From assembly GCA_041500125.1 (NCBI GenBank), contig JBGQLP010000002.1, positions 92,322 through 156,321 of the forward strand: a stretch of 64,000 bases of DNA, in the 5' to 3' direction. Made by a program: the position numbers and the translations under genes. This document shows, piece after piece, positions 6,980 through 19,910 of this stretch. Within the stretch, counting starts at the first letter, position 1. Every line of letters starts with the position of its first letter. Source of the DNA: Gemmatimonadota bacterium. GTDB lineage: Bacteria; Gemmatimonadota; Gemmatimonadetes; Gemmatimonadales; GWC2-71-9. Under the pieces are notes generated by a model that saw nothing but the letters and a program-made list of their open reading frames with translations, had not been told where the DNA came from and did not search any database.

Positions 6980-8614
<1,635 letters not shown>

Positions 8615-8637
8615 GATCCGTAAACGGTTAGAACGAA

Positions 8638-8669
8638 GCGCCCCGGGCAGCTGCCCGGGGCGCTTTTTT
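8638..8669 (+). terminator. Rho-independent terminator after groEL
   Basis: Perfect palindrome GCGCCCCGGGCAG/CTGCCCGGGGCGC followed by TTTTTT (8664-8669). Confidence 0.85.
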
Positions 8670-8778
8670 CGTATCTGCCCTCCAAACACTGCATCCCCAG
8701 TCTGGCTGAGTCTATCCCCCTGCTGTAGGTTCGCATTTCGGGTATTGGGTGACTGGAACTGTCTCAGGAGGAGGTTCT

Positions 8779-9531
8779 ATGACCACCATCCCGCTGGTAC
8801 GGTGGCTCGCCTGGCTGCTTTCGCTCTCGCTCACCACCCTGGTGCCCAGCCTGGCGGGGCAGTCACAGCCCGCGATCACCGACGCGATCATCGGTGAGTC
8901 CAATCCGATCAGTCCCGAGATCAGCACTGCGCAGCTGCAACAGGCCCTCAGGGAGGGCAAGACCCCGGTCCTCGACGTGCGCTCGGCTCAGGAGTACGCC
9001 ATCGCCCACATTCCTGGAAGCATCAATCACTATGAGAAGGAAGTCGAACAGATCACCAAGGCATATCCGGACCACAAAACGGCCCTGATCCTCTATTGCA
9101 ACGGGCCCTACTGCGGCAAGTCGATACGGCTTTCCGAGGAATTGAAGAAACAGGGATACACCAATCTCCGCCGCTACCAGCTGGGTCTTCCGGTCTGGCG
9201 CGCGCTGGGCAACACGGTGCAGACCGATCTGCCGGGAGTGCGCTACGTGCTGGCCGGCGACAAGACCGCGGTGTGGGTCGATGCGCGCAGCGCCGAGACG
9301 TTTGCCAAGGGCAGCCTCCCCGGAGCGGTGAACATCGCCACGGGAGAGGCCGAGGCGGCGAATGATGATGGGCGTCTGCCCAAGAAGGACAAAGGCACCC
9401 GGGTCATCGTCTTCGGGGACTCGCCCGAGGAAGCGCGAGCGGTGGCAGAAGAGATCGCCCACAAGGCGTACTGGAACAGCAGCTATTTCGGGGGCCGTTT
9501 CTCCGACCTGAGGTCCGTGGCCGCGCGTTGA
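8779..9531 (+). CDS. Exported tandem rhodanese-domain protein (sulfurtransferase-like)
   Basis: ATG at 8779 after AGGAGGAGG. Signal peptide. LDVRSAQEYAIAHIPGSIN and YCNGPYCGKS form a rhodanese active-site loop, followed by a second rhodanese-like half. Confidence 0.75.
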   Translation: MTTIPLVRWLAWLLSLSLTTLVPSLAGQSQPAITDAIIGESNPISPEISTAQLQQALREGKTPVLDVRSAQEYAIAHIPGSINHYEKEVEQITKAYPDHKTALILYCNGPYCGKSIRLSEELKKQGYTNLRRYQLGLPVWRALGNTVQTDLPGVRYVLAGDKTAVWVDARSAETFAKGSLPGAVNIATGEAEAANDDGRLPKKDKGTRVIVFGDSPEEARAVAEEIAHKAYWNSSYFGGRFSDLRSVAAR

Positions 9532-9707
9532 GCCTGGGCCGAAGCGTCGCGTAATTCCCTGGCTCGGGTGGATCGCCCGCTGCAGATGGTCGCACTCTGG
9601 TGGCGGCTGTGGCCCTCCAACCACTTACGAGCGACCTCACCCGGTATGACAAATGCGGCGAGTGGCCGAATGCCTCGCACGGTCATTCCCTCAACGGGCG
9701 GAGCCGC

Positions 9708-10229
9708 ATGCCAAAGCCTTCACCTGGCCAGAAGCCCGATCCGATGTCAGGCGTGGTCGACCGCCTGCTGGCGCAGCTCCCCGGGCTGCAAGGCGAAGCC
9801 CCCATCTCTCGCGGGGCCTCGCACCAAGTAGGCTCGTCCGGCACGTCAATCCATACCGTTCCCCCTCCTATGGAGGACCTCCTCGGGCCGTGGGCTCGGC
9901 TGGTTCTAGGCCTGGCGCTTGGCACCATGATGGCCTGGTGGCCGTACCCAAGGACCTGTGGCTTTCCCCTCGCTGGATATCTGACCGCGGTCCTCACTGT
10001 CGTCCTCGGAGGCGGGTGGGCCGCAGTGTCCGCCTGGAGATACCGGGCCAGCCTGGCTCACGTGCTCTCGCTCATTCTGGTGTTCTACGGGATGATGCTG
10101 GTGGCTGCGGAGCTCCTGCCGAGAACCGGATACGCCGTCGATCAGGCAACCTGGCAATGCCAAGAGAACGATCTCGATTCGTCCTGGTCGGCCTCCCTGA
10201 ATCATCAATCCGTGCGCAGCAACAGCTGA
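9708..10229 (+). CDS. Hypothetical membrane protein
   Basis: ATG at 9708. Three or four hydrophobic helices. The 3' end overlaps the convergent regulator gene by 25 nt. The start is uncertain (the track ORF begins at 9600). Confidence 0.45.
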   Translation: MPKPSPGQKPDPMSGVVDRLLAQLPGLQGEAPISRGASHQVGSSGTSIHTVPPPMEDLLGPWARLVLGLALGTMMAWWPYPRTCGFPLAGYLTAVLTVVLGGGWAAVSAWRYRASLAHVLSLILVFYGMMLVAAELLPRTGYAVDQATWQCQENDLDSSWSASLNHQSVRSNS

Positions 10230-13200
10230 AACGGGAAGTAATCTCGTAACGATTCGAATTCCGGATCGGAGTGCACGTCTTCGTTCTCCAGGTTGTCGAA
10301 GGCAATCGGTCTACCCTCGACCCAGGCCGTCCGTAGCAACCCTACGGCCGCCGCTTTGTCACCCAAGGCAGCGGCGATGCGCGCCCGGGCATAGGTCTGC
10401 CTCCCGAATTGGTACTTTTGGGGGAGCTGTGCCAGAATCCGGTCGAATCGTCTCGCTGCAGTACTGTCTCCCAAGTGTACGGCCGTGGTACCCAGTCGTC
10501 CCAGCAAATCCGAGTTGCCCGGATGCCGTGCCAGCCCCGCGGCATACAGCCGTTGGGCATTGTCCCATCGTCCGGCGGCCGACTCGAGGTCGCCCTCCAG
10601 AAGAGCCGCGGCCAAGTTGGTGTCGCTGGGCGAGGTCATGGGTATGGCGACGAGCGGCTCCAACCACCGCGCGGCGGCGGCAGTATGCCCGTGGGCCCGC
10701 AGCTCGCGCCACACGTAGAACGCTTTCTGGCGGTCGCCGATCGCCGGCACGGGATCGTCCCGCGTGACCCGAGGGAGCTCCTGGCGGAGGGCGTCCACGT
10801 CACCCCGGGCGGCCAGCGCCAGGAGCAGATCGAGGTGAGTCCAGAAGCGGTCGGGGAACCGGCGCAAGCCCTGCCGTGCGCTCTCGGCCTCGGCCAGGTG
10901 GTCTCCTACTCGATGCAGTGCCGGGGTCTGATTGATCCAGTAGAATGGCGCCACCAGAAGCAGGCCGCGATCGGGATCGACCCGAGACAGGATGTTCAAT
11001 GCCTCCCGGGGACGGTTGACGAACAGGGCGCTGCTGGCGGCGAGGGTGTAACCCTCGACTGAGGCCGGCGTCAGGCTCATCAGGTCGCGGGCGGCCCGCA
11101 GCCGGCCCCACAGGTCTCCCCGGAGGTCGGCTTCAAGCCCGGCCAGAACCGCGCGCTCGGCCGGCTTCAGCGTATTGGCGTGCGCTTGCAGTCGACGCAC
11201 CAGCGTGTCCACCGCCGGCCAGTGGGAAAGCCGCGTTTCCACATACGCCCGCATGAGCAGCGGAGTCATGTACTGGCTATCGAGTACGCTGGCACGCCGC
11301 AGGCGTTGGAACACGTCCCCGAAATCGTCCCGGAAGAAGCTCTCCCATGCCTTGCTGACCTCGGTGTAGGCCTCATACGACGGCGGGTCTCCCAGTGCCG
11401 CGGAGAAGCCTCGACTGGTGGTGTCAACCGCCGATGCTACGGCCGCCAGGACGTGATTGCCGAGCGCGGCGATCAGGCGCGATGGCGCCGTCGCAAGTCC
11501 GCTTACCGGATCAATCGCGCGCACGATCTTTCCGGTTCCCGCATCGATCACTTGCATCAGGACCTTCAGGCTGTCGCCTTCCTCGAACAGGTCACCCGAG
11601 ACTACCGTCCCTGCGCCGGTCTCGTCGGCCAGCGCGATGGCTGGATTGCGATCCCGCAGAAACCTAGGAATGCGGTCGACAATGCGTCCGGCCAAGGATG
11701 TAGTGCGAGGATCGACCACCTCGAACTGGGTCGTGCGCATGAGGCCCTGCGCGATCCAATCGGCAGCCATCGCACCGAGACCGGCCAGCGCGCTGTCGCC
11801 GGTGTGATTGGTCAGGGGGGCGATCACGATCCGTTGCGGCACGAGCGACGGCTTACTTCGGGTGAGCAGAGTGAGGAGACTCGCCCGTCGCGACGGCGGA
11901 ATGAGCAGCATGACGGTGAAGGCAGCCAGGATCATGGCGGCAGCGGCAACCAGGGCGCGTCTGACCCAGCGGGTCGATCGCAGACGCGAGCCGGCGCGAC
12001 CTCGGTGATACGTTAGAGCCGCCTTGGCCCCGGGATGACGGCGCTGCGTTTGCCAGGCCCTGGCCGCTGATTGATGTAACTCCTCCCGTCGCTCGGGTGC
12101 CAGCCGGTCGTAGGCCACCCGACCAATGATCTCGTGGGTAAACTCGTGTAGTGCTGGTGCCTCAAGCGATCCCCGCAACATCCGCCGGCCGATAAGCTCC
12201 TCCAGCGCCACCGCGCTCGCGGCAGGACTGAGCCCGGAAACCTGGGGCACCATCTCGGCGTCGAAGCTGCGCCCCAACACGGCGGCGGCATCCAGCACTC
12301 CTCGCGCCTCGCCGCTGAGCCGGTCGAGGCGCCGGCCGACTATCTCGCGAATGGTGGCTGGAAGCGGAATGGGTTGCTCGTCGCTCGTTGCGGCCAGGTG
12401 CCACGCCCCCGATTCGGTCGGCGCGAGGACCTCTTCGTCCACCATCGCCGCCGTAAGCTCGATGGTGTAGAACGGGTTCCCGCCGCCCTGGGCGTGGAGC
12501 CTGCGCGCCAGCCGCTGTCTCTCCGAGACCGGGAGCTCCAGCATCGAGGCCAGCAGGGTTTCGACCTCGTGGGCGCTGAGTGCGTGAAGCTTCAAGCGCC
12601 GAGCGTGGAATTCGGAGGCGAGCTCGATGTAGGCGGAGGAGGGTTCTTCCTCGCCGGTCCGCGCAGTTATGAGGAGGAGAACCGCGGTGGAAAGGCGGGC
12701 CACGACGGTCCGCAGCAGCCGCTGAGTGGATTCGTCGGCGCGCGGGAGATCATCGATGAAGAGGATGACGGGCCGGTCCTCGCTCACCGCCTTGATGGTC
12801 TCGACCAGCGCCTCTTCCAGAGCGGCCTGACCGCCGCTGGGCTCGGGCAAGTGGGGGAAGCGGTCGCGCAGGGACGGCGCAACCAGACTCACCTCGCTCA
12901 GCGCTCGCGGCGATGCTCCGGCAGCGCCGGGAGCCGTCGCCAGAGTTCCCAGCAGCTCGCCTATCGGCGAAAGCCGGCCCGGCTCGATCTGCTTGAGACC
13001 TCGCGCCCGCGCGACGATCGGCGCCGAGCGGTCGCTGGCGAGCCGGTCGAGAAACTCCTCACACAAACGGGTCTTCCCGATGCCGGCCTCGCCCTCGACC
13101 AGGACCGTGGCCGGTCTACCTGCCCGTACCCGCCCCCACGCCGATAGCAGCTCGGCCATCGCCGGCCCCCGTCCGACGAGGTCCGGGGTAAACAGGGCGG

Positions 13201-13978
13201 CGGAGCTGGGAGTCGGGTGGGCGGGCGCTCTCGCGCTGTCGTGCTCGAGCAGCTTACCCAGCTGGATGAACGCAGGCGTCGGCTCCAGCTCCATGGCTTG
13301 GAGCTGGGAACGGAATCCGGCGTAGCGGGCCAGCGCCTCGCCGGCACGGCCATCCAGGTGCATCAGCTCCAGGAGGTTCCGGTAGCCGGCTTCCTCCCGC
13401 GGCAGGGCTTCCACCCACCGCTCGGCCCAGCCGACGCCTTGAGCCCACGCTCCGTGTCGCCGCGCCTGCTCGATCAGCCGCTGCAGCGCCGTCCGGAGCC
13501 CGCGGCGACAACCTTCCCGTTCGGCCTCCAGCCAGACGCGAAAGTCCTCGCCACCCATGTCATCGATGTCGGCGAGAAACTCTCCACCCCAGCGCGCCGC
13601 CGCGTCGTGCCAGCGGCCGGCGGACAGGTCGCTCTCGAAGCAGGCCACATCCAGAACTACCGCATCCGCCATCAGCCCGACCTTCTCGGGACCGGCGTCG
13701 AGGCCGTTTCCAACCGTGCGCTTGAGCTCGAGCAGGGCCTGACGCAGCGACTGACGAGCCTTCATTGCGTCCCGGTTTCCCCACAGTAACTCGGCCAGCT
13801 CGCCGCGCCCGATCATTTTCGGTGCCCGGCGGGCCAGATAGGTGAGGAGCGCCAGTTCCTTCCGCCGACTCGAGAGTCTGGCAGCCGAGTCGCCCTCGAG
13901 CCGAAGCTCGCCAAGGGTGTGGAGCACGAGCCGGGGTGCTGTCACGTAACGCCGCGGGCGCCATGGCTTTGACGCCAA
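10205..13978 (-). CDS. Membrane-spanning SARP/BTAD-type regulator with P-loop (STAND-like) ATPase, one TM helix and periplasmic TolB-like + TPR region
   Basis: 1257 aa. OmpR/PhoB-type winged helix at aa ~18-90. BTAD-like region at aa ~110-240 (FRVWLEAERE...LMHLDGRAGEALARY). Walker A GEAGIGKT at aa 296-303 and Walker B ILFIDDL at aa ~405-411. TM helix ALVAAAAMILAAFTVMLLI at aa ~675-694. Then IVIAPLTNHTGD (TolB-N-like) and C-terminal TPR-like helices ending DPEFESLRDYFPFQLLL. Confidence 0.75.
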   Translation of the reverse strand: MASKPWRPRRYVTAPRLVLHTLGELRLEGDSAARLSSRRKELALLTYLARRAPKMIGRGELAELLWGNRDAMKARQSLRQALLELKRTVGNGLDAGPEKVGLMADAVVLDVACFESDLSAGRWHDAAARWGGEFLADIDDMGGEDFRVWLEAEREGCRRGLRTALQRLIEQARRHGAWAQGVGWAERWVEALPREEAGYRNLLELMHLDGRAGEALARYAGFRSQLQAMELEPTPAFIQLGKLLEHDSARAPAHPTPSSAALFTPDLVGRGPAMAELLSAWGRVRAGRPATVLVEGEAGIGKTRLCEEFLDRLASDRSAPIVARARGLKQIEPGRLSPIGELLGTLATAPGAAGASPRALSEVSLVAPSLRDRFPHLPEPSGGQAALEEALVETIKAVSEDRPVILFIDDLPRADESTQRLLRTVVARLSTAVLLLITARTGEEEPSSAYIELASEFHARRLKLHALSAHEVETLLASMLELPVSERQRLARRLHAQGGGNPFYTIELTAAMVDEEVLAPTESGAWHLAATSDEQPIPLPATIREIVGRRLDRLSGEARGVLDAAAVLGRSFDAEMVPQVSGLSPAASAVALEELIGRRMLRGSLEAPALHEFTHEIIGRVAYDRLAPERREELHQSAARAWQTQRRHPGAKAALTYHRGRAGSRLRSTRWVRRALVAAAAMILAAFTVMLLIPPSRRASLLTLLTRSKPSLVPQRIVIAPLTNHTGDSALAGLGAMAADWIAQGLMRTTQFEVVDPRTTSLAGRIVDRIPRFLRDRNPAIALADETGAGTVVSGDLFEEGDSLKVLMQVIDAGTGKIVRAIDPVSGLATAPSRLIAALGNHVLAAVASAVDTTSRGFSAALGDPPSYEAYTEVSKAWESFFRDDFGDVFQRLRRASVLDSQYMTPLLMRAYVETRLSHWPAVDTLVRRLQAHANTLKPAERAVLAGLEADLRGDLWGRLRAARDLMSLTPASVEGYTLAASSALFVNRPREALNILSRVDPDRGLLLVAPFYWINQTPALHRVGDHLAEAESARQGLRRFPDRFWTHLDLLLALAARGDVDALRQELPRVTRDDPVPAIGDRQKAFYVWRELRAHGHTAAAARWLEPLVAIPMTSPSDTNLAAALLEGDLESAAGRWDNAQRLYAAGLARHPGNSDLLGRLGTTAVHLGDSTAARRFDRILAQLPQKYQFGRQTYARARIAAALGDKAAAVGLLRTAWVEGRPIAFDNLENEDVHSDPEFESLRDYFPFQLLLRTD

Positions 13979-14085
13979 GCTTGACGGCCGGCTGCGGGGC
14001 CGGCGCTAACCTGTCTCCACGGTTCGACGCCGCGACGACCGCGGTCGGGCGACCCGGTTCCTAATTCAGAGACGAGGCCACTGGG

Positions 14086-14358
14086 ATGACGCATGAGCCC
14101 GATGAGGAGGGCGGGGGAGCAGAGCGCTTCGAATACTTCATGGTCCGGCTGACCCGCACCGCGAGCGAGCCGGACCGTGTGGCTGGGCTGGTCGAGCGGC
14201 TGGGCTCCGGCCAGAAGCGGAGCTTCGACACCGGCGAGCAGCTGGTCCGGCTGGTGGGTGGCGGGTTCAGCCTCGATCTGAACATGCAGTCCGCAATTAG
14301 CGACCGCAATGCCGTTGAAGGAGATATCTCGGGGCCGTCAGCTAACGATGCCGTCTAG
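14086..14358 (+). CDS. Hypothetical small cytoplasmic protein (first gene of operon)
   Basis: 90 aa with no signal peptide. GAGG lies 8 nt upstream of the ATG. The stop lies inside the SD of the next gene. Confidence 0.5.
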   Translation: MTHEPDEEGGGAERFEYFMVRLTRTASEPDRVAGLVERLGSGQKRSFDTGEQLVRLVGGGFSLDLNMQSAISDRNAVEGDISGPSANDAV

Positions 14359-14368
14359 GAGGAAGCAT

Positions 14369-15439
14369 ATGCGCTCGATTCATCTGGCAGTGATCGCGTT
14401 CGCACTGGTCCTTCCCGTGGCCGGTGCGGCCCAATCCTCTAACGCAGCGGATACCACCCAACCCGCGCCCAAGAAGGGCGGGGGACTGTTCGGCAAGAAG
14501 GGCGGCCTCTTCGGCAAGGCCAAGGCACTGACTCAGAACAAGTTGGTGCAGACCGTCGCCAAGACCGCGGCCTGCAACATGGTGCCTGGGGGACAGCTGA
14601 TCGCCGGCGCGTTGGACAAGAAGTCGGCGGCTAAGACAGGGAAAGACGCTGCAGTGGGAGCGGCCGCGGGAGCCGCGCTGGGTGCTGCCGCCGGCAAAGG
14701 CAACCCGTGCGGCATGGGGATGATGGGGAATCTCGGAGCCGCTGGGATGAACCAAAGTGTACCGGGCGCGGGGATTCCGGGAATGCCGACCACGGGTATG
14801 CCCGGCATGGCCATCTCGGCCGACCAGATGAAGCAGATGGCAGAGCAGTATCAGAAGATGGGGATGAATCCGGCGCAGATCAAAGCGATGCAACAGCAGA
14901 TGCAGGCTGCGAATCCTGGCGGCACCGGGGCCGGGATTTCAGCTGAGCAGATGAAGCAGATGCAGGCACAGTATCAGGCGATGGGGATGGACCCGGCACA
15001 GATCAAGGCCATGCAACGGATGATGACCAGCGCGACTCCCGGGACCGTGGAGCAACCGGCCGGGGAGACGACGCCAGCGCCAACCCAACCGGTGGCTGCC
15101 CCCACGCTCACGAAGGAGAAGGGCCGACTGGTGCTGCGCCAGCTTCCCTGGACCCCTGGTACTGAGGAGATCCAGTCGGGCGCCGAATCTGCCCTCGTGC
15201 TCGGCCTGCACAATGCCGCCGCCGAAATCATTCCGACGGCAAAGCACTACAGCGTGCAGGTAAAAGTCGAAGATCAAGGCTCCAAGGCCCGGAACCAGGA
15301 GCTCGCGCAGAAGCGCGCCGCTGTCATCGTGGCCATTCTCGTGGGAGAGGGAGTACCTCAGGATCGGCTGACGGCGGCCGGCGGTGGCTCGGACAAGGAT
15401 CCCCGAGTTGTGCTGTCTGAAAGCAAGGGAACCAAGTGA
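14369..15439 (+). CDS. Exported Met/Gln-rich repeat protein with OmpA-C-like domain
   Basis: AGGAGG then ATG at 14369. Signal peptide MRSIHLAVIAFALVLPVAGAAQS. KKGGGLFGKKGGLFGK motif. Two ~41-aa-spaced repeats. C-terminal NQELAQKRAAVIVAILVGEGVPQDRL resembles the OmpA-C/peptidoglycan-binding signature. Confidence 0.65.
   Translation: MRSIHLAVIAFALVLPVAGAAQSSNAADTTQPAPKKGGGLFGKKGGLFGKAKALTQNKLVQTVAKTAACNMVPGGQLIAGALDKKSAAKTGKDAAVGAAAGAALGAAAGKGNPCGMGMMGNLGAAGMNQSVPGAGIPGMPTTGMPGMAISADQMKQMAEQYQKMGMNPAQIKAMQQQMQAANPGGTGAGISAEQMKQMQAQYQAMGMDPAQIKAMQRMMTSATPGTVEQPAGETTPAPTQPVAAPTLTKEKGRLVLRQLPWTPGTEEIQSGAESALVLGLHNAAAEIIPTAKHYSVQVKVEDQGSKARNQELAQKRAAVIVAILVGEGVPQDRLTAAGGGSDKDPRVVLSESKGTK
14813..15043 (+). 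repeat. In-frame tandem duplication (~123 bp period) encoding Met/Gln-rich modules
   Basis: ISADQMKQMAEQYQKMGMNPAQIKAMQQQMQAANPG versus ISAEQMKQMQAQYQAMGMDPAQIKAMQRMMTSATPG. The DNA copies are clearly alignable. Confidence 0.85.
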
Positions 15440-15483
15440 TCAAGCGCGGCACTGATGCCGCTGACTCACTGCGGGAGGTACGC

Positions 15484-16938
15484 ATGTCTCACCCCAGTAT
15501 CCGAATCGGCTCGACGGCATCAGCCGCTGCACTGCTGGTCATCGGGCTCGCAGCCACACCGGAGAGGTCGCCGGCCCAGGCTCAGGCCTCGCCTCTGATC
15601 ATCACGATGCGGGCGATGCAAAACCCGCTCTCCCCATCCCAATGCACCGCCATCGAAGTGGTCGTCACCGATGCGAATGGCAGGGCACCGCTTCGTCCCG
15701 ATGGTAAGCAGGTGAGCGGGTGGGATGTGGACCTGAGCCTGGCATCGCCCGCAGTCGATGCGTTTGCCTGGGGAGATGAACGGCATCGATTCCTGTGCGC
15801 CAGGGCGCCGACGGCACCCTATGCGGTGGTGTCGGCCCACTATCCTGCCCAATCCCTCGCGCCACCCGAGCGGCTCGAGAACGTGCAGGCCGATCAGTCC
15901 ATTCAGGTCCTCATGCAGATGGCTGGAGCTCCGGCGGCAGGGTATGGCCAGCAGCAGGCAGTCGGAGCACCAAACGGATATGCTCAGCAGCCTTCCGGAA
16001 GCACGCCCGCCACCGGCTATACGCAGCAGCAGCCAACCGTACCACCGGGGCAGCCCTATATGCCGCCGGCGAATCCGGGCGCCGGGCAGCCGGGCTACTC
16101 GCAATCGGGATATCCGCAGTCCGCCCCGGCGCAGGCGGGGACCCCGCAACAACCTTCAGGCGCTCCCACCCAACAGGCGTACGCGCCTCCGACGAATCCC
16201 GGCCCCGGACCGGCTGCGGCTGGGGTTTCGGCGCCGGCCGGCCAACCGACCAGCTATGCCGGTGCTCCGGCGACGCCCATGCCGATTCCAATCGCGGCAC
16301 CAGTCGCGGCCCAGCCGGCGGAGAAGGGTGGCGGCGGATTTTTCAAGAAGCTCGGCAAGCATCTGAAGGACAAGGCGAGCGAAGTGAAGAATCAAACGGC
16401 CGAGAACCTGGCGAGCACCGCAAATCAGATGGTGGATGTCACGGCGCAGACGGGGAGCAACCTCGTCTCCGGCGCCGCGGCCCAGGCGACCAGTGTGGCC
16501 CAGTCCACGGTGGGCGGTGTCAGTAGCTCGCTGGTGCCCTCTGCGCTCCGAGCCGGTGGGAACGCCGACAACCTCAGCACGGCGGTGGCCTCGGGTGAGG
16601 CGGTGCTGCGCATGATGCGGTTCATTGGCAACACGGACGTGCTCGATGCGACCGGGCGGGACCTGGTCAAACGCCTGGCTCCGGTACTCAACGCCACGCC
16701 CGGCAACTACGTGATCCAGGCCCACGTGGATCCGCTCCCAGCCCCGGCAGAGCCGGGAGCCACTCAGGTGCTATCCGAGCACCGGGCGGCGGCGGTGAAG
16801 GCGGCGCTGATCAGCAACGGGGTCGCCGCAGGCCGTTTGGTCGCGCTCGGCTACGGCACTTCACAGCCGTTGCCGGAGGCCCCCCCGGAAGGCGGGCCGC
16901 CCAGCAGCGCACGAGTCGTGATCGCACGGACGCAGTGA
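15484..16938 (+). CDS. Exported Pro/Gln/Tyr-rich protein with OmpA-C-like domain
   Basis: GGGAGG then ATG at 15484. Signal peptide. N-terminal beta-rich domain. ~140-aa P/Q/G/Y low-complexity region. EKGGGGFFKKLGK motif. C-terminal LSEHRAAAVKAALISNGVAAGRLVALGYG is OmpA-like. Confidence 0.65.
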   Translation: MSHPSIRIGSTASAAALLVIGLAATPERSPAQAQASPLIITMRAMQNPLSPSQCTAIEVVVTDANGRAPLRPDGKQVSGWDVDLSLASPAVDAFAWGDERHRFLCARAPTAPYAVVSAHYPAQSLAPPERLENVQADQSIQVLMQMAGAPAAGYGQQQAVGAPNGYAQQPSGSTPATGYTQQQPTVPPGQPYMPPANPGAGQPGYSQSGYPQSAPAQAGTPQQPSGAPTQQAYAPPTNPGPGPAAAGVSAPAGQPTSYAGAPATPMPIPIAAPVAAQPAEKGGGGFFKKLGKHLKDKASEVKNQTAENLASTANQMVDVTAQTGSNLVSGAAAQATSVAQSTVGGVSSSLVPSALRAGGNADNLSTAVASGEAVLRMMRFIGNTDVLDATGRDLVKRLAPVLNATPGNYVIQAHVDPLPAPAEPGATQVLSEHRAAAVKAALISNGVAAGRLVALGYGTSQPLPEAPPEGGPPSSARVVIARTQ

Positions 16939-16967
16939 GCCAACCCGCACCCTACGAGGACCGTTCT

Positions 16968-18671
16968 ATGTCGGCGATCATCAGCCGGATCACAGCCACA
17001 GTCATGCTGCTCGGAGCGACGGGCGTAATCGCGCTGCCGGCGCAGACGGTGCAGGCGAATGCCACCAATGCCACCACCGTTGCCCTCAGCTGGACGCCGG
17101 TAACGGACGCGGAGCGGTACTACGTCCAGCGAGCAATCGGCGCTGCCGGCTTCAGCAACTTGAGCACACCCAAAATCACCGGCACCGGATATACCGACAC
17201 GAGCGTGCCGGCGAATATCGCTGTTCAATATCGACTCATGACCAAGCTGAAGAACGGACATCTCCGCTACAGCGCGGCGGTACAGCGGAGGACTCCAGGT
17301 TCCTCTACAGCCTCCCAAGCTGGTGGAGCAGCCTCTCCGGCCGGAGGGGCAGCCTCGCAAACCGGCGGGTCAGCCGGGGCGGCGGCTTCACCAGCAGGTG
17401 GGGCAGCTTCAACCGGTGGGGCCGCCTCAGCAGGCGGGGCCGCCTCACAGACCGGTGGCGCAGGCGCTCCGGCAGGTGGCGCAGCTTCGCAGGCAACTGG
17501 TCCAGCCTCCCAGCCAAGTGGGGCAGCCTCCCAGGCAGGTGGGGTAGCCTCGCAAGCCGGTGGTGCAGCCCCCCAAGCCGGCAGCGCAGCACCCCAGGCC
17601 AGCGCCACACTCTTGCCGGGACAGCCGATCGCCAACGTGACGATGGCGCCGCGGGACCCGCACCAGTTTGTTGCTGCTCCCTCCGCAGCTCCCGCACCCG
17701 CAGCCGCCCCAGCACCGGCACCCGCTCCTCCACCCAGCCCGGCACCCGTGGTCACCAGCGGCCGTTATCGGATCGTGGCGAATGGGTTCAGCGTGGTCCA
17801 GCAGGCGCACAGCCATCATGACGACGTGTACGGCGGGTTCATCATGCTGCACTTCAACCGTCAGACTGGTGAACTTCTGGACCGCGATGCTCGGCACACC
17901 AAGGTCTTGGGCGACATCAATGGCCGGGTTTTCGGCGAGACGGATGGTGGTGACTTCAACCGACTCCGCGCCGGCACTGCCAACGCAAGCGGTGGCCTGA
18001 AAAATGGAGACAGCTATCCGGACGCCGGCCATGCCCGGTTCCGCGGTCAGGACGGGGCGCCACCCAATCGCGTGACCTTCCCGTTCGAGATCTGGACCGG
18101 AGACCTCACCAACGCCAGTGACGCGGTCGTCATTCTGCCAAGCTTGTGGTCGAGGGACGGGAAGCTTTCAGGGTTCGACCAATGGCAGAGTTCAGAGCTC
18201 AGCGCGGCGTCCCAGATCTGGTATGACCAGGCCGTGCAGCAGGCTTTGCATCAAACCACCCTGGGTGTGGTTGCCCCTCCCGGGGCGGTCACACCCAACG
18301 GCAATCAGATGTTCGCCCAACTCGCCAACCTGGTCGGGGCAACCATTCTGGGCGGCTTGGGACAACCCTGGGCGCTCGCGTTCGCGTTCGATCCGTCAGC
18401 TCATGATGTCCCGATCGGATTTGATCCCTACGCGAAAGCACTGCCTCGGCGAGCCATCGTGCTGACCCGGGAGATGATCGAGCAGGCACTCAATAGTCCG
18501 CCGGCGCCGCTCAGCCCAACCATGCTGGTGCCGAACTACCCCGCGTGGGTACTGGGCTATCTCACTGTTCCCGTCGGGGTGATTCCCGTGCTCCTGTTCG
18601 ACCACGTGCCGCCGCCGGGCGAGCCGCTGCGCACGTCCTACGTGATGTACTTGCAGGTAGAGCGGTTGTAA
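16968..18671 (+). CDS. Exported FN3-domain protein with GGAAS(Q) repeat array, Pro/Ala linker and unknown ~300-aa C-terminal domain
   Basis: GAGGA then ATG at 16968. Signal peptide ending AQTVQA. FN3-like VALSWTPVTDAERYYVQRA...YTDTSV...YRL. The C-terminal domain is not recognised. Confidence 0.6.
   Translation: MSAIISRITATVMLLGATGVIALPAQTVQANATNATTVALSWTPVTDAERYYVQRAIGAAGFSNLSTPKITGTGYTDTSVPANIAVQYRLMTKLKNGHLRYSAAVQRRTPGSSTASQAGGAASPAGGAASQTGGSAGAAASPAGGAASTGGAASAGGAASQTGGAGAPAGGAASQATGPASQPSGAASQAGGVASQAGGAAPQAGSAAPQASATLLPGQPIANVTMAPRDPHQFVAAPSAAPAPAAAPAPAPAPPPSPAPVVTSGRYRIVANGFSVVQQAHSHHDDVYGGFIMLHFNRQTGELLDRDARHTKVLGDINGRVFGETDGGDFNRLRAGTANASGGLKNGDSYPDAGHARFRGQDGAPPNRVTFPFEIWTGDLTNASDAVVILPSLWSRDGKLSGFDQWQSSELSAASQIWYDQAVQQALHQTTLGVVAPPGAVTPNGNQMFAQLANLVGATILGGLGQPWALAFAFDPSAHDVPIGFDPYAKALPRRAIVLTREMIEQALNSPPAPLSPTMLVPNYPAWVLGYLTVPVGVIPVLLFDHVPPPGEPLRTSYVMYLQVERL
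17307..17600 (+). repeat. Degenerate 21-24 bp in-frame tandem repeat array encoding (S/P/T)(Q)xGGAAS units
   Basis: About 13 units such as ASQAGGA, ASPAGGA, ASQTGGS and ASTGGA. The same region produces mirror-image Ala/Gly/Pro ORFs on the minus strand (17267..17755). Confidence 0.85.
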
Positions 18672-18707
18672 GTCATTCCAGCCAGCACTCAGGCCCGAGG
18701 AGTTTCT

Positions 18708-19910
18708 ATGCGGATGCACATGGTAGTACGTCTCTCCACGACCGCGCTGGCGAGCGTTGCGCTCGCCGGACTGGTCTCGGCGCAGGTGCCCACCAAGACC
18801 AGCGAGCCTCGACTGGCGGTGCCTCGTTCCGATCTTCCCCTGGCCCAACCCCCAGGGCAGCCCACGACGGCACCAACGAGCACTGCTGCGTCAACCGACA
18901 CGACGCCCACTCCGGGGCCAGTCACGCAAGTGACCGGTGGGGCGAGTGGGGTGACGCAGCTGGGAGGAGGAGCGGGTGCACCGACTACATCGAGCAGCTC
19001 ATATGCCGCGACCGCAGCACGAGCCTACACCGGGGCCAAGTTCGCGTTGACGGTGGGCGGGGTGGATGCAGGATGGCTCCAGACACTCGAGGGCGGTGGA
19101 CCTAGCTCAGATGTCGTAACTGAGAAGCTTGGGCCGGACAATGTCAGCCATAAACATCTCGCGGGGGTCAAGTACGACGACATCGCCTTCGATACTGGGC
19201 TGGATTCGAAGCCGATCACGGATTGGATCGCGGAGAGCTGGGACGGGAAGAACAGCCCCAAGGATGGCAGCGTGATCATAGCCGACTACAACGTGAAACC
19301 CGTGTCCGAACTCCAGTTCTACCATGCCCGCCTCGCTGAGGCCACGTTCCCCCGGCTGGATGCAGCCAGTAAGGATGCCGCTCATATTACCGTGAAGCTG
19401 TCACCCGAGTACACCCGAGCAGTGTCTGGATCGGGGAAGGTAGTAGCAGGAGCGGCCAAGGCGATTGTGTCGAAGAAATGGCTCGCTTCGACCTTCCGCT
19501 TCGAGATGGCCGGCCTCGACGGAAGCAAGGTCAACGTCATTGAATCATTTACCGTTTCCCAGAAATTCGCGGACACCCCGGTGGGCGAGCTGCGCGACTA
19601 CCAGAAGGAGCCGGCGAGCCTCGAGTTTCCCAACCTGAAGGTGACGCTGCCCGAGGGGTACGCCCAGAGCTGGTACGGCTGGCTCGACGACTTCGTGGTC
19701 AAGGGGAACAACGGACAGGACAAGGAGCGGGACGGCTCTATCATCTACCTCAGTGCCGACCTTAAGACCGAATTGGCGCGCGTCAACCTCTTCGGCTGCG
19801 GGATCTTTGGATTGAATCCCGTGAAGACGCAAGCCGCGTCTGAAACGATCCGGCGAGTGACTGCCGACTTGTACTGCGAGCGGATGCAGCTGCAAGTCCC
19901 AAAGTCATGA
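18708..19910 (+). CDS. Exported protein with two tandem phage/eCIS tail-tube-like (T4 gp19 / Pvc1 / Afp1-type) domains
   Basis: GAGGAG then ATG at 18708. Signal peptide ...LAGLVSA/QV. T/P/S-rich linker to aa ~105. Domain 1 reads KFALTVGGVDAGW...HLAGVKYDDIAFDTG...ITDWIAESW...KDGSVIIADYN...FPRLDAASKDAAHITVKL, which follows the tube-family pattern I recall from Pvc1 (YRFIVSVGD...KMPGQ..TNITLRKG..LFDWINS..KKDITISL..FDATSNDIAVQEITL). Domain 2 (aa ~262-395) repeats the pattern more loosely. Confidence 0.6.
   Translation: MRMHMVVRLSTTALASVALAGLVSAQVPTKTSEPRLAVPRSDLPLAQPPGQPTTAPTSTAASTDTTPTPGPVTQVTGGASGVTQLGGGAGAPTTSSSSYAATAARAYTGAKFALTVGGVDAGWLQTLEGGGPSSDVVTEKLGPDNVSHKHLAGVKYDDIAFDTGLDSKPITDWIAESWDGKNSPKDGSVIIADYNVKPVSELQFYHARLAEATFPRLDAASKDAAHITVKLSPEYTRAVSGSGKVVAGAAKAIVSKKWLASTFRFEMAGLDGSKVNVIESFTVSQKFADTPVGELRDYQKEPASLEFPNLKVTLPEGYAQSWYGWLDDFVVKGNNGQDKERDGSIIYLSADLKTELARVNLFGCGIFGLNPVKTQAASETIRRVTADLYCERMQLQVPKS

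What the first reader, a model, noticed from the sequence alone, without database searches (positions are those of the whole stretch)
18708..19910. Sec-signal-bearing protein with two tandem contractile-tail tube domains and no other tail genes nearby
Seen: the N-terminus MRMHMVVRLSTTALASVALAGLVSA/QV looks like a cleavable signal peptide. A ~80-aa T/P/S-rich linker follows, then two ~130-aa modules. Module 1 follows the tube-protein pattern I recall from T4 gp19 / Pvc1 / Afp1 (F.L.V.G, LAGVKYDDIAF, DWI, KDGSVII.D, FPRLDAASKDAAHITVKL). Module 2 repeats it more loosely (FRFEMAGLDG, EFPNLKVTL, W.GW, RDGSIIYL). Established: tube proteins of phage tails, eCIS and T6SS assemble in the cytoplasm and lack signal peptides, and they come with sheath and baseplate genes. 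None of those are visible within the surrounding ~9 kb on either side. Inference: a tube fold has been exapted for a periplasmic or surface role, possibly forming a ring or tube in the envelope.
Basis: partly seen in the sequence, partly recalled or inferred. Interest (0 to 1): 0.7.

Follow-up and report, generated by a model that had tools for sequence, protein, structure and literature searches.

The report
Exported tandem phage-tail-tube protein
A soil bacterium (order Gemmatimonadales) makes a protein built from two copies of the phage-tail "tube" fold and appears to send it out of the cytoplasm, with cell-wall-binding partners and no injection machinery nearby; it belongs to a large, apparently undescribed family of exported tube-fold proteins.

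Summary
ORF 18708-19910 (+) encodes 400 aa in four parts. There is a Sec-type signal peptide (aa 1-25, VSA|QV). A disordered T/P/A/S/G-rich tether follows (aa 26-104). Then come two tail-tube domains. Module 1 hits Pfam PF06841 (E 4e-12). Module 2 is a diverged duplicate of module 1 (hhalign E 1.4e-9). The AF2 model has pLDDT above 90 over aa 111-400. Foldseek matches tandem tube proteins T5 pb6 and P74-26 at E ~1e-10, and single tubes Afp1, Pvc1 and gp19.

No sheath, baseplate or phage genes were found in the 64-kb housekeeping window.

The gene ends a conserved Gemmatimonadales operon. All its other large products carry signal peptides: two OmpA_C peptidoglycan binders and an Fn3 protein with an unmatched fold. 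Sister loci add signal-bearing Hcp-like genes.

The family is large: 1,854 clusters at 50% identity with E <= 1e-30. Myxococcota copies sit inside eCIS loci and never carry a signal (0/18). Copies away from any CIS locus mostly carry Sec or Tat signals (39/59).

A cysteine pair occurs only in the Sec-exported Gemmatimonadales clade (55/55 against 0/51).

Export is well supported. Ring or tube assembly in the envelope is inferred, and the function is unknown.

The parts
18708..19910 (+). Gene for the 400-aa exported tandem tube-fold protein (stop codon 19908-19910)
   Evidence: ORF list and translation. 242 homologues found. Pfam PF06841 hit.
18697..18702 (+). Shine-Dalgarno GAGGAG, 5 nt upstream of the ATG; it fixes the start codon, so the signal peptide is translated
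   Evidence: Sequence read directly.
18708..18782 (+). Sec (SPase I type) signal peptide, aa 1-25, predicted cut VSA|QV
   Evidence: n/h/c layout, KD12 peak 2.09, conserved as a pattern in ~55 orthologues. Heuristic only; SignalP was not run.
18783..19019 (+). Disordered T/P/A/S/G-rich tether, aa 26-104. Conserved end motifs: QVPTKTSEPRLAVPR just after the cut, and PVTQVTGGASGVTQLG...TSSSSYAATA just before module 1
   Evidence: Composition, pLDDT ~50, motif conservation in A2.
19020..19445 (+). Tube module 1, aa 105-246 (gp19/Afp1/Pvc1-type)
   Evidence: Pfam PF06841 E 4.1e-12. PDB profile hits 8bl4_v, Afp1 and Pvc1. hhalign against eCIS single-tube family E 1e-9. AF2 and Foldseek.
19473..19907 (+). 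Tube module 2, aa 256-400, a diverged internal duplicate of module 1
   Evidence: hhalign module 1 against module 2: probability 96.4%, E 1.4e-9. pLDDT above 90. Two-domain Foldseek matches to T5 pb6 and P74-26.
19797..19799 (+). Codon for Cys364. With Cys390 it makes the only two cysteines of the protein. Cys at this position is specific to the Sec-exported Gemmatimonadales clade
   Evidence: 55/55 clade members have Cys here; 0/51 other family members do.
19875..19877 (+). Codon for Cys390, the putative disulfide partner of Cys364 on the neighbouring antiparallel strand
   Evidence: Strands 355-371 and 383-389 in the AF2 secondary structure. The pairing register is inferred, not read from coordinates.
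16935..18671 (+). Upstream operon gene, 578 aa: signal peptide, Fn3 domain, G/A/P-rich spacer, and a ~300-aa C-terminal domain of unmatched fold. True start is probably Met12, at 16968
   Evidence: Translation. The phrog_4971 hit covers aa 15-122 only, the stretch read here as an Fn3-like domain. 62 homologues, the named ones Gemmatimonadales, no Pfam hit. AF2 pTM 0.80. No Foldseek PDB hit below E 0.27.
15436..16938 (+). Operon gene, 500 aa: signal peptide, P/Q-rich spacer, OmpA_C peptidoglycan-binding domain (TssL/MotB-like subtype)
   Evidence: Pfam PF00691 E 7e-10. NCBIfam domain-level hits. Translation.
14309..15439 (+). Operon gene, 376 aa as listed (true start probably 14369): signal peptide, Gly-zipper-like stretch, Met/Gln-rich repeats, OmpA_C domain
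   Evidence: Pfam PF00691 E 5.6e-8. Translation. Orthologue alignment starts at 14369.
14086..14358 (+). Small conserved 90-aa ORF with no signal peptide at the head of the operon; function unknown
   Evidence: Conserved in L001, L003, L004 and L005 at 52-84% identity. No Pfam or PADLOC hit.
10205..13978 (-). Divergently transcribed BTAD + AAA_16 + TPR (SARP/AfsR-like) regulator, conserved next to the operon in sister loci
   Evidence: Pfam. Same gene type in L001, L003 and L004.

Best explanation
The gene encodes an envelope protein, not a component of a contractile injection system.

Proposed steps:
1. The Sec system exports the protein, and signal peptidase I cuts it after VSA25. This is shown only by sequence pattern and conservation.
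2. The mature protein has a short conserved N-terminal motif, a ~65-aa flexible T/P-rich tether, and a rigid tandem tail-tube module. The module was inherited from the tube family of extracellular contractile injection systems (eCIS).
3. In the oxidising periplasm, a clade-specific Cys364-Cys390 pair probably forms a disulfide that staples the last hairpin of module 2 (inferred).
4. Known tandem tube proteins (T5 pb6, P74-26 TTP) form trimers that make pseudo-sixfold rings. By analogy, this module most likely oligomerises into rings or short stacks (inferred).
5. The rings would be held at the cell wall through the co-operonic peptidoglycan-binding OmpA_C proteins and the Fn3 protein. Sister genomes would add signal-bearing Hcp-like rings (inferred).
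6. Expression is probably conditional, under the adjacent SARP/AAA/TPR regulator (inferred).

The protein is one clade of a large family of tandem tube proteins. The family splits into cytoplasmic copies embedded in eCIS loci and Sec-, Tat- or lipoprotein-exported copies found away from any CIS. The physiological role of the exported forms is not known.
For: - Fold and duplication.
- Start codon and signal: SD; signal and post-cleavage motif conserved in ~55 orthologues.
- Cysteines: the protein has exactly two. Both are present in 55/55 clade members, and Cys364 in 0/51 others.
- Operon: genes overlap or lie 36 nt apart, and all three upstream large products have signal peptides. Two carry OmpA_C.
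- Synteny: the same operon lies between the same housekeeping flanks in L001, L003, L004, L005 and L008.
- No CIS genes: none in the window or in +-10 kb of those loci.
- Hcp-like neighbours: signal-bearing Hcp-like genes sit in L001, L003, L004, L010 and L011.
- Family-wide signal pattern: 0/18 eCIS-embedded copies carry a signal; 9/11 in the Gemmatimonadales operon do; 39/59 orphans carry Sec or Tat signals. Among 145 cluster representatives, 67 carry signals, including lipobox forms.
- Family size: 1,854 representatives at E <= 1e-30.
- Sequence constraint: the exported window protein is ~49% identical over 300 aa to the eCIS-embedded Myxococcales copy P0083. That is far closer than module 1 is to the single-domain tube of the same eCIS loci, a match shown here only by profile comparison. 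This suggests strong shared structural constraints.
Against: - No dedicated signal-peptide predictor could be run, and there is no experimental localisation.
- Oligomer state and ring formation were not modelled, because only monomer prediction was available.
- The disulfide register is inferred from secondary structure, not from coordinates.
- This window lacks the Hcp-like genes and second paralogue seen in sister loci, so any multi-ring assembly would be incomplete here.
- The module also occurs inside giant secreted multidomain proteins (P0183 has 5 matched stretches; P0202, P0210). That fits a generic binding or adhesion domain as well as it fits a ring former.
- The whole genome could not be searched for a tube-less CIS locus.
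Confidence: 0.6

Rival explanations
1. The protein is exported but does not assemble. The tandem tube module would act as a monomeric binding, adhesion or decoy domain in the envelope. It might bind cell-wall fragments, or cap incoming phage or CIS tubes as a defence, without forming rings or tubes itself.
For: - The module occurs inside giant signal-bearing multidomain proteins (P0183, 1,943 aa with 5 stretches; P0202; P0210).
- Orphan copies have no conserved neighbours, as stand-alone accessory genes often do.
- The tube gene diverges fast relative to its neighbour: ~56% identity against 95% between the window and L005.
- A cell-wall theme recurs around these genes: OmpA_C, Peptidase_M19, SLT.
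Against: - No operon protein hits PADLOC, apart from one weak MotB-type match to the OmpA_C region of the 500-aa protein.
- Sequence conservation with eCIS-embedded copies is high (~49%), which suggests retained assembly interfaces.
- Every structurally characterised tube-fold protein matched by Foldseek is a ring former.
- Several tube-superfamily paralogues cluster together in sister loci, which points to co-assembly.
Confidence: 0.27
2. The N-terminal hydrophobic segment is an uncleaved signal anchor. The protein would be tethered to the inner membrane, with the tube module hanging in the periplasm on the T/P-rich tether.
For: - The long flexible tether directly after the hydrophobic segment would suit a membrane-tethered head.
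- The conserved motif right after the segment could be a juxtamembrane element.
Against: - The h-region is only ~15 residues, which is short for a membrane span.
- Small residues at -3 and -1 (A/S-x-A, followed by Q) are conserved across the clade, as expected for signal peptidase I sites.
- Other family members use Tat or lipobox signals, which implies release or lipid anchoring rather than a signal anchor.
Confidence: 0.08
3. The protein is an ordinary cytoplasmic tube component of a contractile injection system or prophage tail encoded elsewhere in the genome. The apparent signal peptide would be an artefact of start-codon choice or chance hydrophobicity.
For: - Module 1 is a member of PF06841 by score.
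- Close relatives (~49% identity) are embedded in Myxococcota eCIS loci.
- The rest of the genome could not be examined.
Against: - The SD motif fixes the start codon.
- The signal, a 100-aa extension and a post-cleavage motif are conserved in ~55 orthologues.
- 0/18 eCIS-embedded copies carry any extension.
- The gene sits in a conserved operon of signal-bearing envelope proteins within housekeeping DNA.
- The cysteine pair is clade-specific.
- No phage genome among 50,697 carries a homologue.
Confidence: 0.05

Closest known systems
eCIS and phage inner tube proteins of Pfam PF06841 (T4 gp19, Serratia Afp1/Afp5, Photorhabdus Pvc1/Pvc5, Algoriphagus Alg1, Streptomyces CIS tube 8bl4)
   Same: - Module 1 scores above the Pfam gathering threshold.
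- It matches their sequences by profile.
- Each module superposes on them at TM 0.67-0.78, normalised to the target.
   Different: - Those proteins are ~140-165 aa single domains, with no signal peptide.
- They assemble in the cytoplasm on a baseplate, inside a sheath, and are always encoded with sheath and baseplate genes.
- Here there are two fused domains and a Sec signal plus a 79-aa tether.
- The neighbours are envelope proteins, and no CIS genes were found.
Tandem-duplicated tail tube proteins of siphophages (T5/DT57C pb6, P74-26 TTP, SH-Ab15497 major tail protein)
   Same: - They are the best Foldseek matches over both domains (E 4e-10 to 3e-8; TM 0.42-0.59).
- The viral library gives similar ~300-340-aa 'major tail proteins'.
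- Those proteins place two tube domains in one chain and build pseudo-hexameric trimer rings (established from the cited structures).
   Different: - Sequence identity is only 8-12%, so there is structural similarity without demonstrable common origin of the duplication.
- Those proteins are phage-encoded and cytoplasmic.
- By sequence, the duplication here traces to the gp19/Afp1 lineage.
- tblastn finds no homologue in 50,697 phage genomes.
Uncharacterised ~305-aa tandem tube proteins embedded in Myxococcota/Polyangia eCIS loci (e.g. P0083 in L002)
   Same: - True homologues: ~49% identity over both modules, with the same length of core.
   Different: - They start directly at the tube module (MPITxxKRxYxAGKY) with no signal.
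- They sit between two sheath genes, next to a Pvc16_N cap gene and a single-domain tube gene.
- They lack Cys364.
Hcp/TssD (PF05638), the tube of type VI secretion systems
   Same: - Same tube-fold superfamily, with weaker Foldseek hits at E 3e-4 to 1e-3.
- Sister loci carry Hcp-like genes beside the tandem-tube gene, and those genes also have signal peptides.
   Different: - The window protein has no PF05638 match.
- Canonical Hcp has no signal peptide and leaves the cell only through the T6SS.

Membership tests
PF06841 tube proteins (gp19/Afp1/Pvc1) | Sequence match above the curated Pfam threshold | tested here: met
   46.5 bits against a cut-off of 28.2, E 4.1e-12, aa 111-235. Module 2 is not matched by Pfam.
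PF06841 tube proteins (gp19/Afp1/Pvc1) | Tail-tube beta-sandwich fold | tested here: met
   AF2 pLDDT above 90 over aa 111-400. Foldseek probability 1.00 to Alg1, Pvc1/5, Afp1/5 and gp19.
PF06841 tube proteins (gp19/Afp1/Pvc1) | Encoded in a cluster with sheath, baseplate and spike genes | tested here: not met
   None found in the 64-kb window, nor within +-10 kb in sister loci. The rest of the genome could not be tested.
PF06841 tube proteins (gp19/Afp1/Pvc1) | Cytoplasmic assembly with no export signal | tested here: not met
   Conserved Sec-type signal peptide. This rests on a heuristic, not SignalP.
PF06841 tube proteins (gp19/Afp1/Pvc1) | Forms hexameric rings that stack into a tube | not testable with these tools
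   Only monomer structure prediction was available.
Tandem tail tube proteins (T5 pb6 / P74-26 TTP type) | Two tube domains in one polypeptide | tested here: met
   hhalign module 1 against module 2 E 1.4e-9. Two-domain Foldseek alignments of 330-386 columns.
Tandem tail tube proteins (T5 pb6 / P74-26 TTP type) | Homology to those phage proteins (common descent of the duplication) | tested here: inconclusive
   Structural match at E ~1e-10, but only 8-12% identity and TM 0.42-0.59. No sequence hit in phage genomes.
Tandem tail tube proteins (T5 pb6 / P74-26 TTP type) | Trimeric pseudo-hexameric ring | not testable with these tools
   No multimer modelling was available.
Sec (SPase I) secretory proteins | N-terminal n/h/c signal with small residues at -3 and -1 | tested here: met
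   MRMHMVVR / LSTTALASVALAGLV / SA|Q, with KD12 of 2.09. The pattern is conserved in ~55 orthologues. SignalP was not run.
Hcp/TssD (PF05638) | Sequence match to PF05638 | tested here: not met
   No PF05638 hit for the window protein. Similarity is at fold level only.
Known anti-phage defence systems (PADLOC) | Match to a PADLOC model | tested here: not met
   No system-level hit for any operon protein. The only match is a weak MotB-type domain hit (ZorB, E 0.0013) on the OmpA_C region of the 500-aa protein.

The most novel reading that the evidence does not exclude
Sec- and Tat-exported tail-tube-fold proteins (tandem gp19-like and Hcp-like) may form a previously unrecognised class of extracytoplasmic assemblies that lack both sheath and baseplate. 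These would be rings, stacks or tubes that self-assemble in the periplasm or on the cell surface. In Gemmatimonadales they would be anchored to peptidoglycan by dedicated OmpA_C proteins. The class would span ten or more bacterial phyla, and it would represent a second, non-contractile domestication of the phage tail tube.
Probability: 0.22. Interest if true: 0.9.

Novelty: new variant of a known kind. Interest (0 to 1): 0.72.

Why it matters
Tail-tube-fold proteins (gp19, Afp1, Pvc1, Hcp) are textbook examples of proteins that have no signal peptide and assemble only in the cytoplasm, inside a sheath and on a baseplate.

This analysis points to a large family (about 1,850 clusters at 50% identity) whose members fall into two groups. 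One group sits inside eCIS loci with no signal. The other sits away from any CIS and carries Sec, Tat or lipoprotein signals. A parallel set of signal-bearing Hcp-like proteins shows the same split.

If correct, this would mean three things.

- The tube fold has been domesticated for work outside the cytoplasm many times.
- Automatic labels such as 'phage tail protein' or 'T6SS Hcp' mislead for hundreds of environmental genes, which could inflate CIS and T6SS census counts.
- There may be an unknown envelope structure in poorly studied phyla such as Gemmatimonadota, Chloroflexota, Acidobacteriota and Armatimonadota.

The Gemmatimonadales operon gives a defined gene set with which to test this experimentally.

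Tried and rejected
- NCBIfam and PHROGs gave no hit for the target protein.
- The PHROG 'major tail protein' hit of the 578-aa neighbour covers only aa 15-122, the stretch read here as an Fn3-like domain, so it was rejected as evidence for a tail gene.
- That neighbour's C-terminal domain was modelled (pTM 0.80) to see whether it was a hidden sheath or baseplate protein. Foldseek found nothing better than E 0.27.
- The search for related loci with the 106-sequence alignment failed because no conserved stretch was long enough. It worked with a 12-sequence alignment.
- Clustering of neighbours of 61 non-eCIS, non-operon loci (including the three encapsulin-adjacent ones) found no partner shared across them. 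The exception is a methyltransferase in 8 Chloroflexota, Dormibacterota and Actinomycetota loci.
- PADLOC gave no defence-system hit.
- tblastn against 50,697 phage genomes gave no hit. Plasmids gave only single-domain tube hits to module 1.
- Four literature searches found no paper describing signal-bearing tube or Hcp proteins.
- The NJ tree is too star-like to say whether the exported or the eCIS-embedded state is ancestral.
- My Sec/Tat classifier is a crude regex plus hydropathy. It misses at least 8 obvious Tat-like signals, so the fractions quoted are lower bounds, not precise rates.
Full report
**1. The observation**

A GAGGAG Shine-Dalgarno motif at 18697-18702 sits 5 nt before the ATG. 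The upstream gene ends at 18671, so the N-terminus is not an artefact of start-codon choice.

The N-terminus MRMHMVVR-LSTTALASVALAGLV-SA|QV has the n/h/c layout of a signal peptidase I substrate.

Residues 26-104 are 73% T/P/A/S/G and are predicted disordered, with pLDDT ~50.

Module 1 (aa 111-235) hits Pfam PF06841 (Phage_T4_gp19) at E 4.1e-12 and 46.5 bits, against a cut-off of 28.2. A profile of the family finds the Streptomyces CIS tube 8bl4_v (E 7e-9), Afp1 (7.7e-4) and Pvc1 (1e-3) among solved structures.

Pfam does not see module 2. A profile-profile comparison of module 1 against module 2 gives probability 96.4% and E 1.4e-9 over 134 columns.

An AlphaFold2 model built on 106 homologues has pLDDT above 90 over essentially all of aa 111-400. 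Foldseek against the PDB puts two-domain tail tube proteins on top: T5/DT57C pb6, P74-26 TTP and the SH-Ab15497 major tail protein (E 4e-10 to 3e-8). Single-domain tubes follow: Alg1, Pvc1/5, Afp1/5, T4 gp19 and Hcp. The viral structure library gives the same picture.

**2. The surroundings**

The gene is the last of a tightly packed, same-strand set.
- A small 90-aa ORF with no signal (14086-14358).
- A 376-aa protein with a signal peptide, Met/Gln-rich repeats and an OmpA_C domain (14309-15439).
- A 500-aa protein with a signal peptide, a P/Q-rich spacer and an OmpA_C domain (15436-16938).
- A 578-aa protein with a signal peptide, an Fn3 domain, a G/A/P-rich spacer and a ~300-aa C-terminal domain (16935-18671).

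A BTAD/AAA_16/TPR regulator is transcribed divergently (10205-13978).

Everything else tested in the 64 kb is housekeeping: GroEL, SerRS, UvrD, GatA/B, NusA, IF-2, SecD, FTHFS, a cyclophilin and a Na/H exchanger. tblastn with eCIS cap, sheath and tube proteins and with Hcp-like proteins finds nothing in the window but the gene itself.

The PHROG 'major tail protein' hit of the 578-aa neighbour covers only aa 15-122, the stretch read here as an Fn3-like domain. Its C-terminal domain has 62 homologues, the named ones Gemmatimonadales, and no Pfam family. It models confidently (pTM 0.80) but matches no solved structure better than E 0.27. It is therefore not a disguised tail protein.

**3. The operon is conserved**

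Contigs carrying orthologues come from Gemmatimonadales MAGs (L001/L009, L003, L004, L005, L008, L010, L011, L013, L016). They show the same layout: small ORF, two OmpA_C genes, the Fn3/unknown gene and the tandem-tube gene. The regulator lies upstream. The flanks match the window: GroEL upstream, and MBL hydrolase, nucleotidyl transferases, Robl_LC7 and SerRS downstream.

Some loci are richer than the window.
- L003 and L010 carry a second tandem-tube paralogue.
- L001, L003, L004, L010 and L011 carry one or two Hcp-like (PF05638) genes. Those read (L001, L003, L004) begin with signal peptides, for example MSIVWQSVIAAFLGLGAPVALVAQ.
- L004, L005 and L008 carry a ~850-aa Fn3 + Peptidase_M19 protein.

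The window therefore holds a minimal version of the locus. The statement 'no other tube-family genes nearby' is true here but not for the locus type.

**4. The family**

The protein has 242 word-indexed homologues. In an exhaustive HMMER search of 1.84 billion cluster representatives it has 4,497 hits at E <= 1e-3 and 1,854 at E <= 1e-30.

In one-genome-per-species contigs the family appears in Myxococcota, Gemmatimonadota, Chloroflexota, Actinomycetota, Acidobacteriota, Armatimonadota, Nitrospirota, Verrucomicrobiota, Planctomycetota, Burkholderiales, Symbiobacteriaceae and others. All of these are MAGs. Three contexts emerge.

a) About 17 Myxococcota/Polyangia loci place a ~305-aa copy inside an eCIS cluster: Pvc16_N cap, sheath, tandem tube, a 129-aa ORF, a second sheath, and a single-domain tube.

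b) The Gemmatimonadales operon described above.

c) About 60 loci from other phyla have no CIS gene within +-10 kb and no conserved neighbour family.

A simple hydropathy and twin-arginine scan of the N-termini gives the following.

| Context | Copies with an export signal |
|---|---|
| eCIS-embedded | 0 of 18 |
| Gemmatimonadales operon | 9 of 11 (the 2 misses are frameshifted assemblies) |
| Orphans | 39 of 59 (16 Sec, 23 Tat) |

The Tat motifs are canonical, for example SRRRFLGTAAG, NRRDFLKAAG and SRREFLGKT.

Among 145 further cluster representatives, 41 carry Sec signals and 24 carry Tat signals. Two more are giant signal-bearing fusions. At least three of the Sec calls have lipoboxes, and at least 8 further Tat-like signals were missed by my regex.

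The link between 'not in a CIS locus' and 'has an export signal' is the strongest single argument that the window protein's signal is functional.

**5. A second, independent mark of export**

The window protein has exactly two cysteines, C364 and C390. In the 106-sequence alignment both are present in all 55 Gemmatimonadales-type members. No other member has a cysteine at position 364; they carry L, V, A, M or I there.

The AF2 secondary structure places the two residues on neighbouring antiparallel strands, 355-371 and 383-389. A symmetric register would put them opposite each other. A cysteine pair gained only in the Sec-exported clade fits a periplasmic disulfide. It is absent from the Tat-exported forms, which fold before export. 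The register is my inference, because coordinates could not be inspected.

**6. How it most likely works**

Shown:
- The tube fold is present twice.
- The protein carries a conserved export signal and tether.
- It sits in a conserved operon with peptidoglycan-binding proteins.
- No CIS genes are present locally.
- The signal pattern holds across the family.

Inferred:
- Sec export with cleavage at 25/26, followed by disulfide formation.
- Assembly of the tandem module into pseudo-hexameric trimer rings, by analogy with pb6 and P74-26.
- Tethering through the N-terminal motif and spacer to the cell wall, via the OmpA_C and Fn3 partners.
- In richer loci, co-assembly with exported Hcp-like rings.
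- Conditional expression through the SARP-like regulator.

The exported protein is ~49% identical to the eCIS-embedded Myxococcales copy. That is far closer than module 1 is to the single-domain tube of the same eCIS loci, a match shown here only by profile comparison. This suggests that assembly-type constraints are retained.

Against the ring idea, the module also occurs several times within giant secreted proteins (P0183, P0202, P0210). That would suit a generic binding domain equally well. No multimer modelling was possible.

My estimates:

| Claim | Confidence |
|---|---|
| 'Exported, and not a CIS part' | ~0.85 |
| Full statement including rings | 0.6 |

**7. Rivals**

- *Exported monomeric binding or decoy domain, possibly defensive (0.27).* It is favoured by the multidomain fusions, the lack of conserved neighbours among orphans, and fast divergence (tube ~56% against neighbour 95% identity between the window and L005). 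The absence of PADLOC hits and the high conservation with eCIS copies weaken it.
- *Uncleaved signal anchor (0.08).* The short h-region and the conserved A-x-A|Q site argue against it.
- *Ordinary displaced CIS component with a spurious signal (0.05).* The SD motif, clade-wide conservation of the 100-aa extension, the operon, the cysteine pair and the 0/18 result all contradict it. It can be closed finally only by scanning the whole genome.

**8. Comparison with what is known**

By sequence and fold, module 1 belongs to PF06841. By the family's biological definition it fails two tested features: cytoplasmic location without a signal, and encoding alongside sheath and baseplate genes. I therefore do not file it as a CIS tube protein.

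It has the architecture of the tandem siphophage tube proteins, but only 8-12% identity to them. No homologue appears in 50,697 phage genomes. The duplication is probably independent.

Four full-text literature searches found no description of signal-bearing tail-tube or Hcp proteins. That is absence of evidence within the held library only.

**9. Verdict**

The case turns out to be one window onto a much larger, apparently undescribed phenomenon. Function remains unknown.

- Novelty: a new variant of a known kind, that is, a known fold used in a new cellular compartment and genomic context.
- Interest: 0.72.
- Most novel reading not excluded: a class of sheath-less, exported tube or ring assemblies in the envelopes of many phyla (probability ~0.22, interest 0.9 if true).

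Noticed in passing
L003:13436-13999 and 14039-14563; L004:15975-16493; L001:11151-; proteins P0328-P0447: The Hcp-like (PF05638) proteins beside the tandem-tube gene in sister loci carry Sec signal peptides. In their family (640 hits), 78 of the best 120 have an N-terminal signal by my heuristic. Some pairs have near-identical mature ends with and without it, for example MKNWIRSLVVAGSVLGVALAPLAEAEA|ALNAYLKLKGQKQG against MALNAYLKLKGQKQG. Source databases name these 'type VI secretion system Hcp'.
   Followed up: partly
L091:1723-8451 and L092:495-7223; L005:5716-8292; L008:4268-6745; L004:11986-14550: Large Fn3 and/or Peptidase_M19-like secreted proteins recur next to signal-bearing Hcp-like or tandem-tube genes in different lineages. 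L091/L092 also have two SLT lytic transglycosylases nearby and no T6SS genes within +-8 kb. This hints at a cell-wall theme.
   Followed up: partly
L030:~8300-9809, L086:8394-9893 (also L031, L043, L053, L067, L075, L081); P0118, P0194: Tat-signal tandem-tube genes of Chloroflexota, Dormibacterota and Actinomycetota are preceded by a conserved DUF7059-MTS-DUF7782 methyltransferase gene. Other family members are fused at the N-terminus to a methyltransferase domain.
   Followed up: partly
L006:9159-11980, L007:2176-4997, L037: A signal-less member sits immediately downstream of an encapsulin (Linocin_M18) gene. It has the layout methyltransferase, acidic spacer, tandem tube, C-terminal extension. 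In L006 it lies beside MtrB/multihaem cytochrome genes, so it may be encapsulin cargo.
   Followed up: no
P0183 (1,943 aa), P0202 (1,010 aa), P0210 (2,774 aa), P0292 (834 aa): Giant proteins, some with signal peptides, contain one to five matched stretches of the tandem-tube profile. The module is therefore also used as a domain in very large secreted proteins.
   Followed up: no
window 17745-18668 (C-terminal domain of the 578-aa protein): This ~300-aa domain has only 62 homologues (the named ones Gemmatimonadales) and no Pfam family. It models confidently (pTM 0.80) yet matches no PDB structure (best E 0.27), so it may be a new fold. It is 95% identical to the L005 copy, while the adjacent tube gene is only ~56% identical. 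That suggests paralogue replacement or fast evolution of the tube gene.
   Followed up: partly
window 14309-15439: The first OmpA_C protein carries KKGGGLFGKKGGLFGK, a glycine-zipper-like stretch, and Met/Gln-rich repeats (MKQMAEQYQKMGMNPAQIKAMQQQMQ, twice). The repeats are reminiscent of Met-rich metal-binding motifs. No family match was found outside the OmpA_C domain.
   Followed up: no
window 14086-14358: A conserved 90-aa ORF with no signal heads the operon in all sister loci examined (FEYFM[VI]RL[TS]R...GEKRSF motif). It overlaps the listed start of the next gene and has no Pfam or PADLOC hit. It may be a small regulator.
   Followed up: partly
L001:11500-12900: The Hcp-like gene in this 831-kb MAG contig runs into an out-of-frame gyrB fragment. 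This looks like a frameshift or a chimeric assembly junction rather than biology.
   Followed up: no
L003:14632-15285: A signal-bearing 217-aa protein made of acidic repeats (LKAGDDDDDELQAQPSV, about six times) follows the Hcp-like genes in the richer version of the locus.
   Followed up: no
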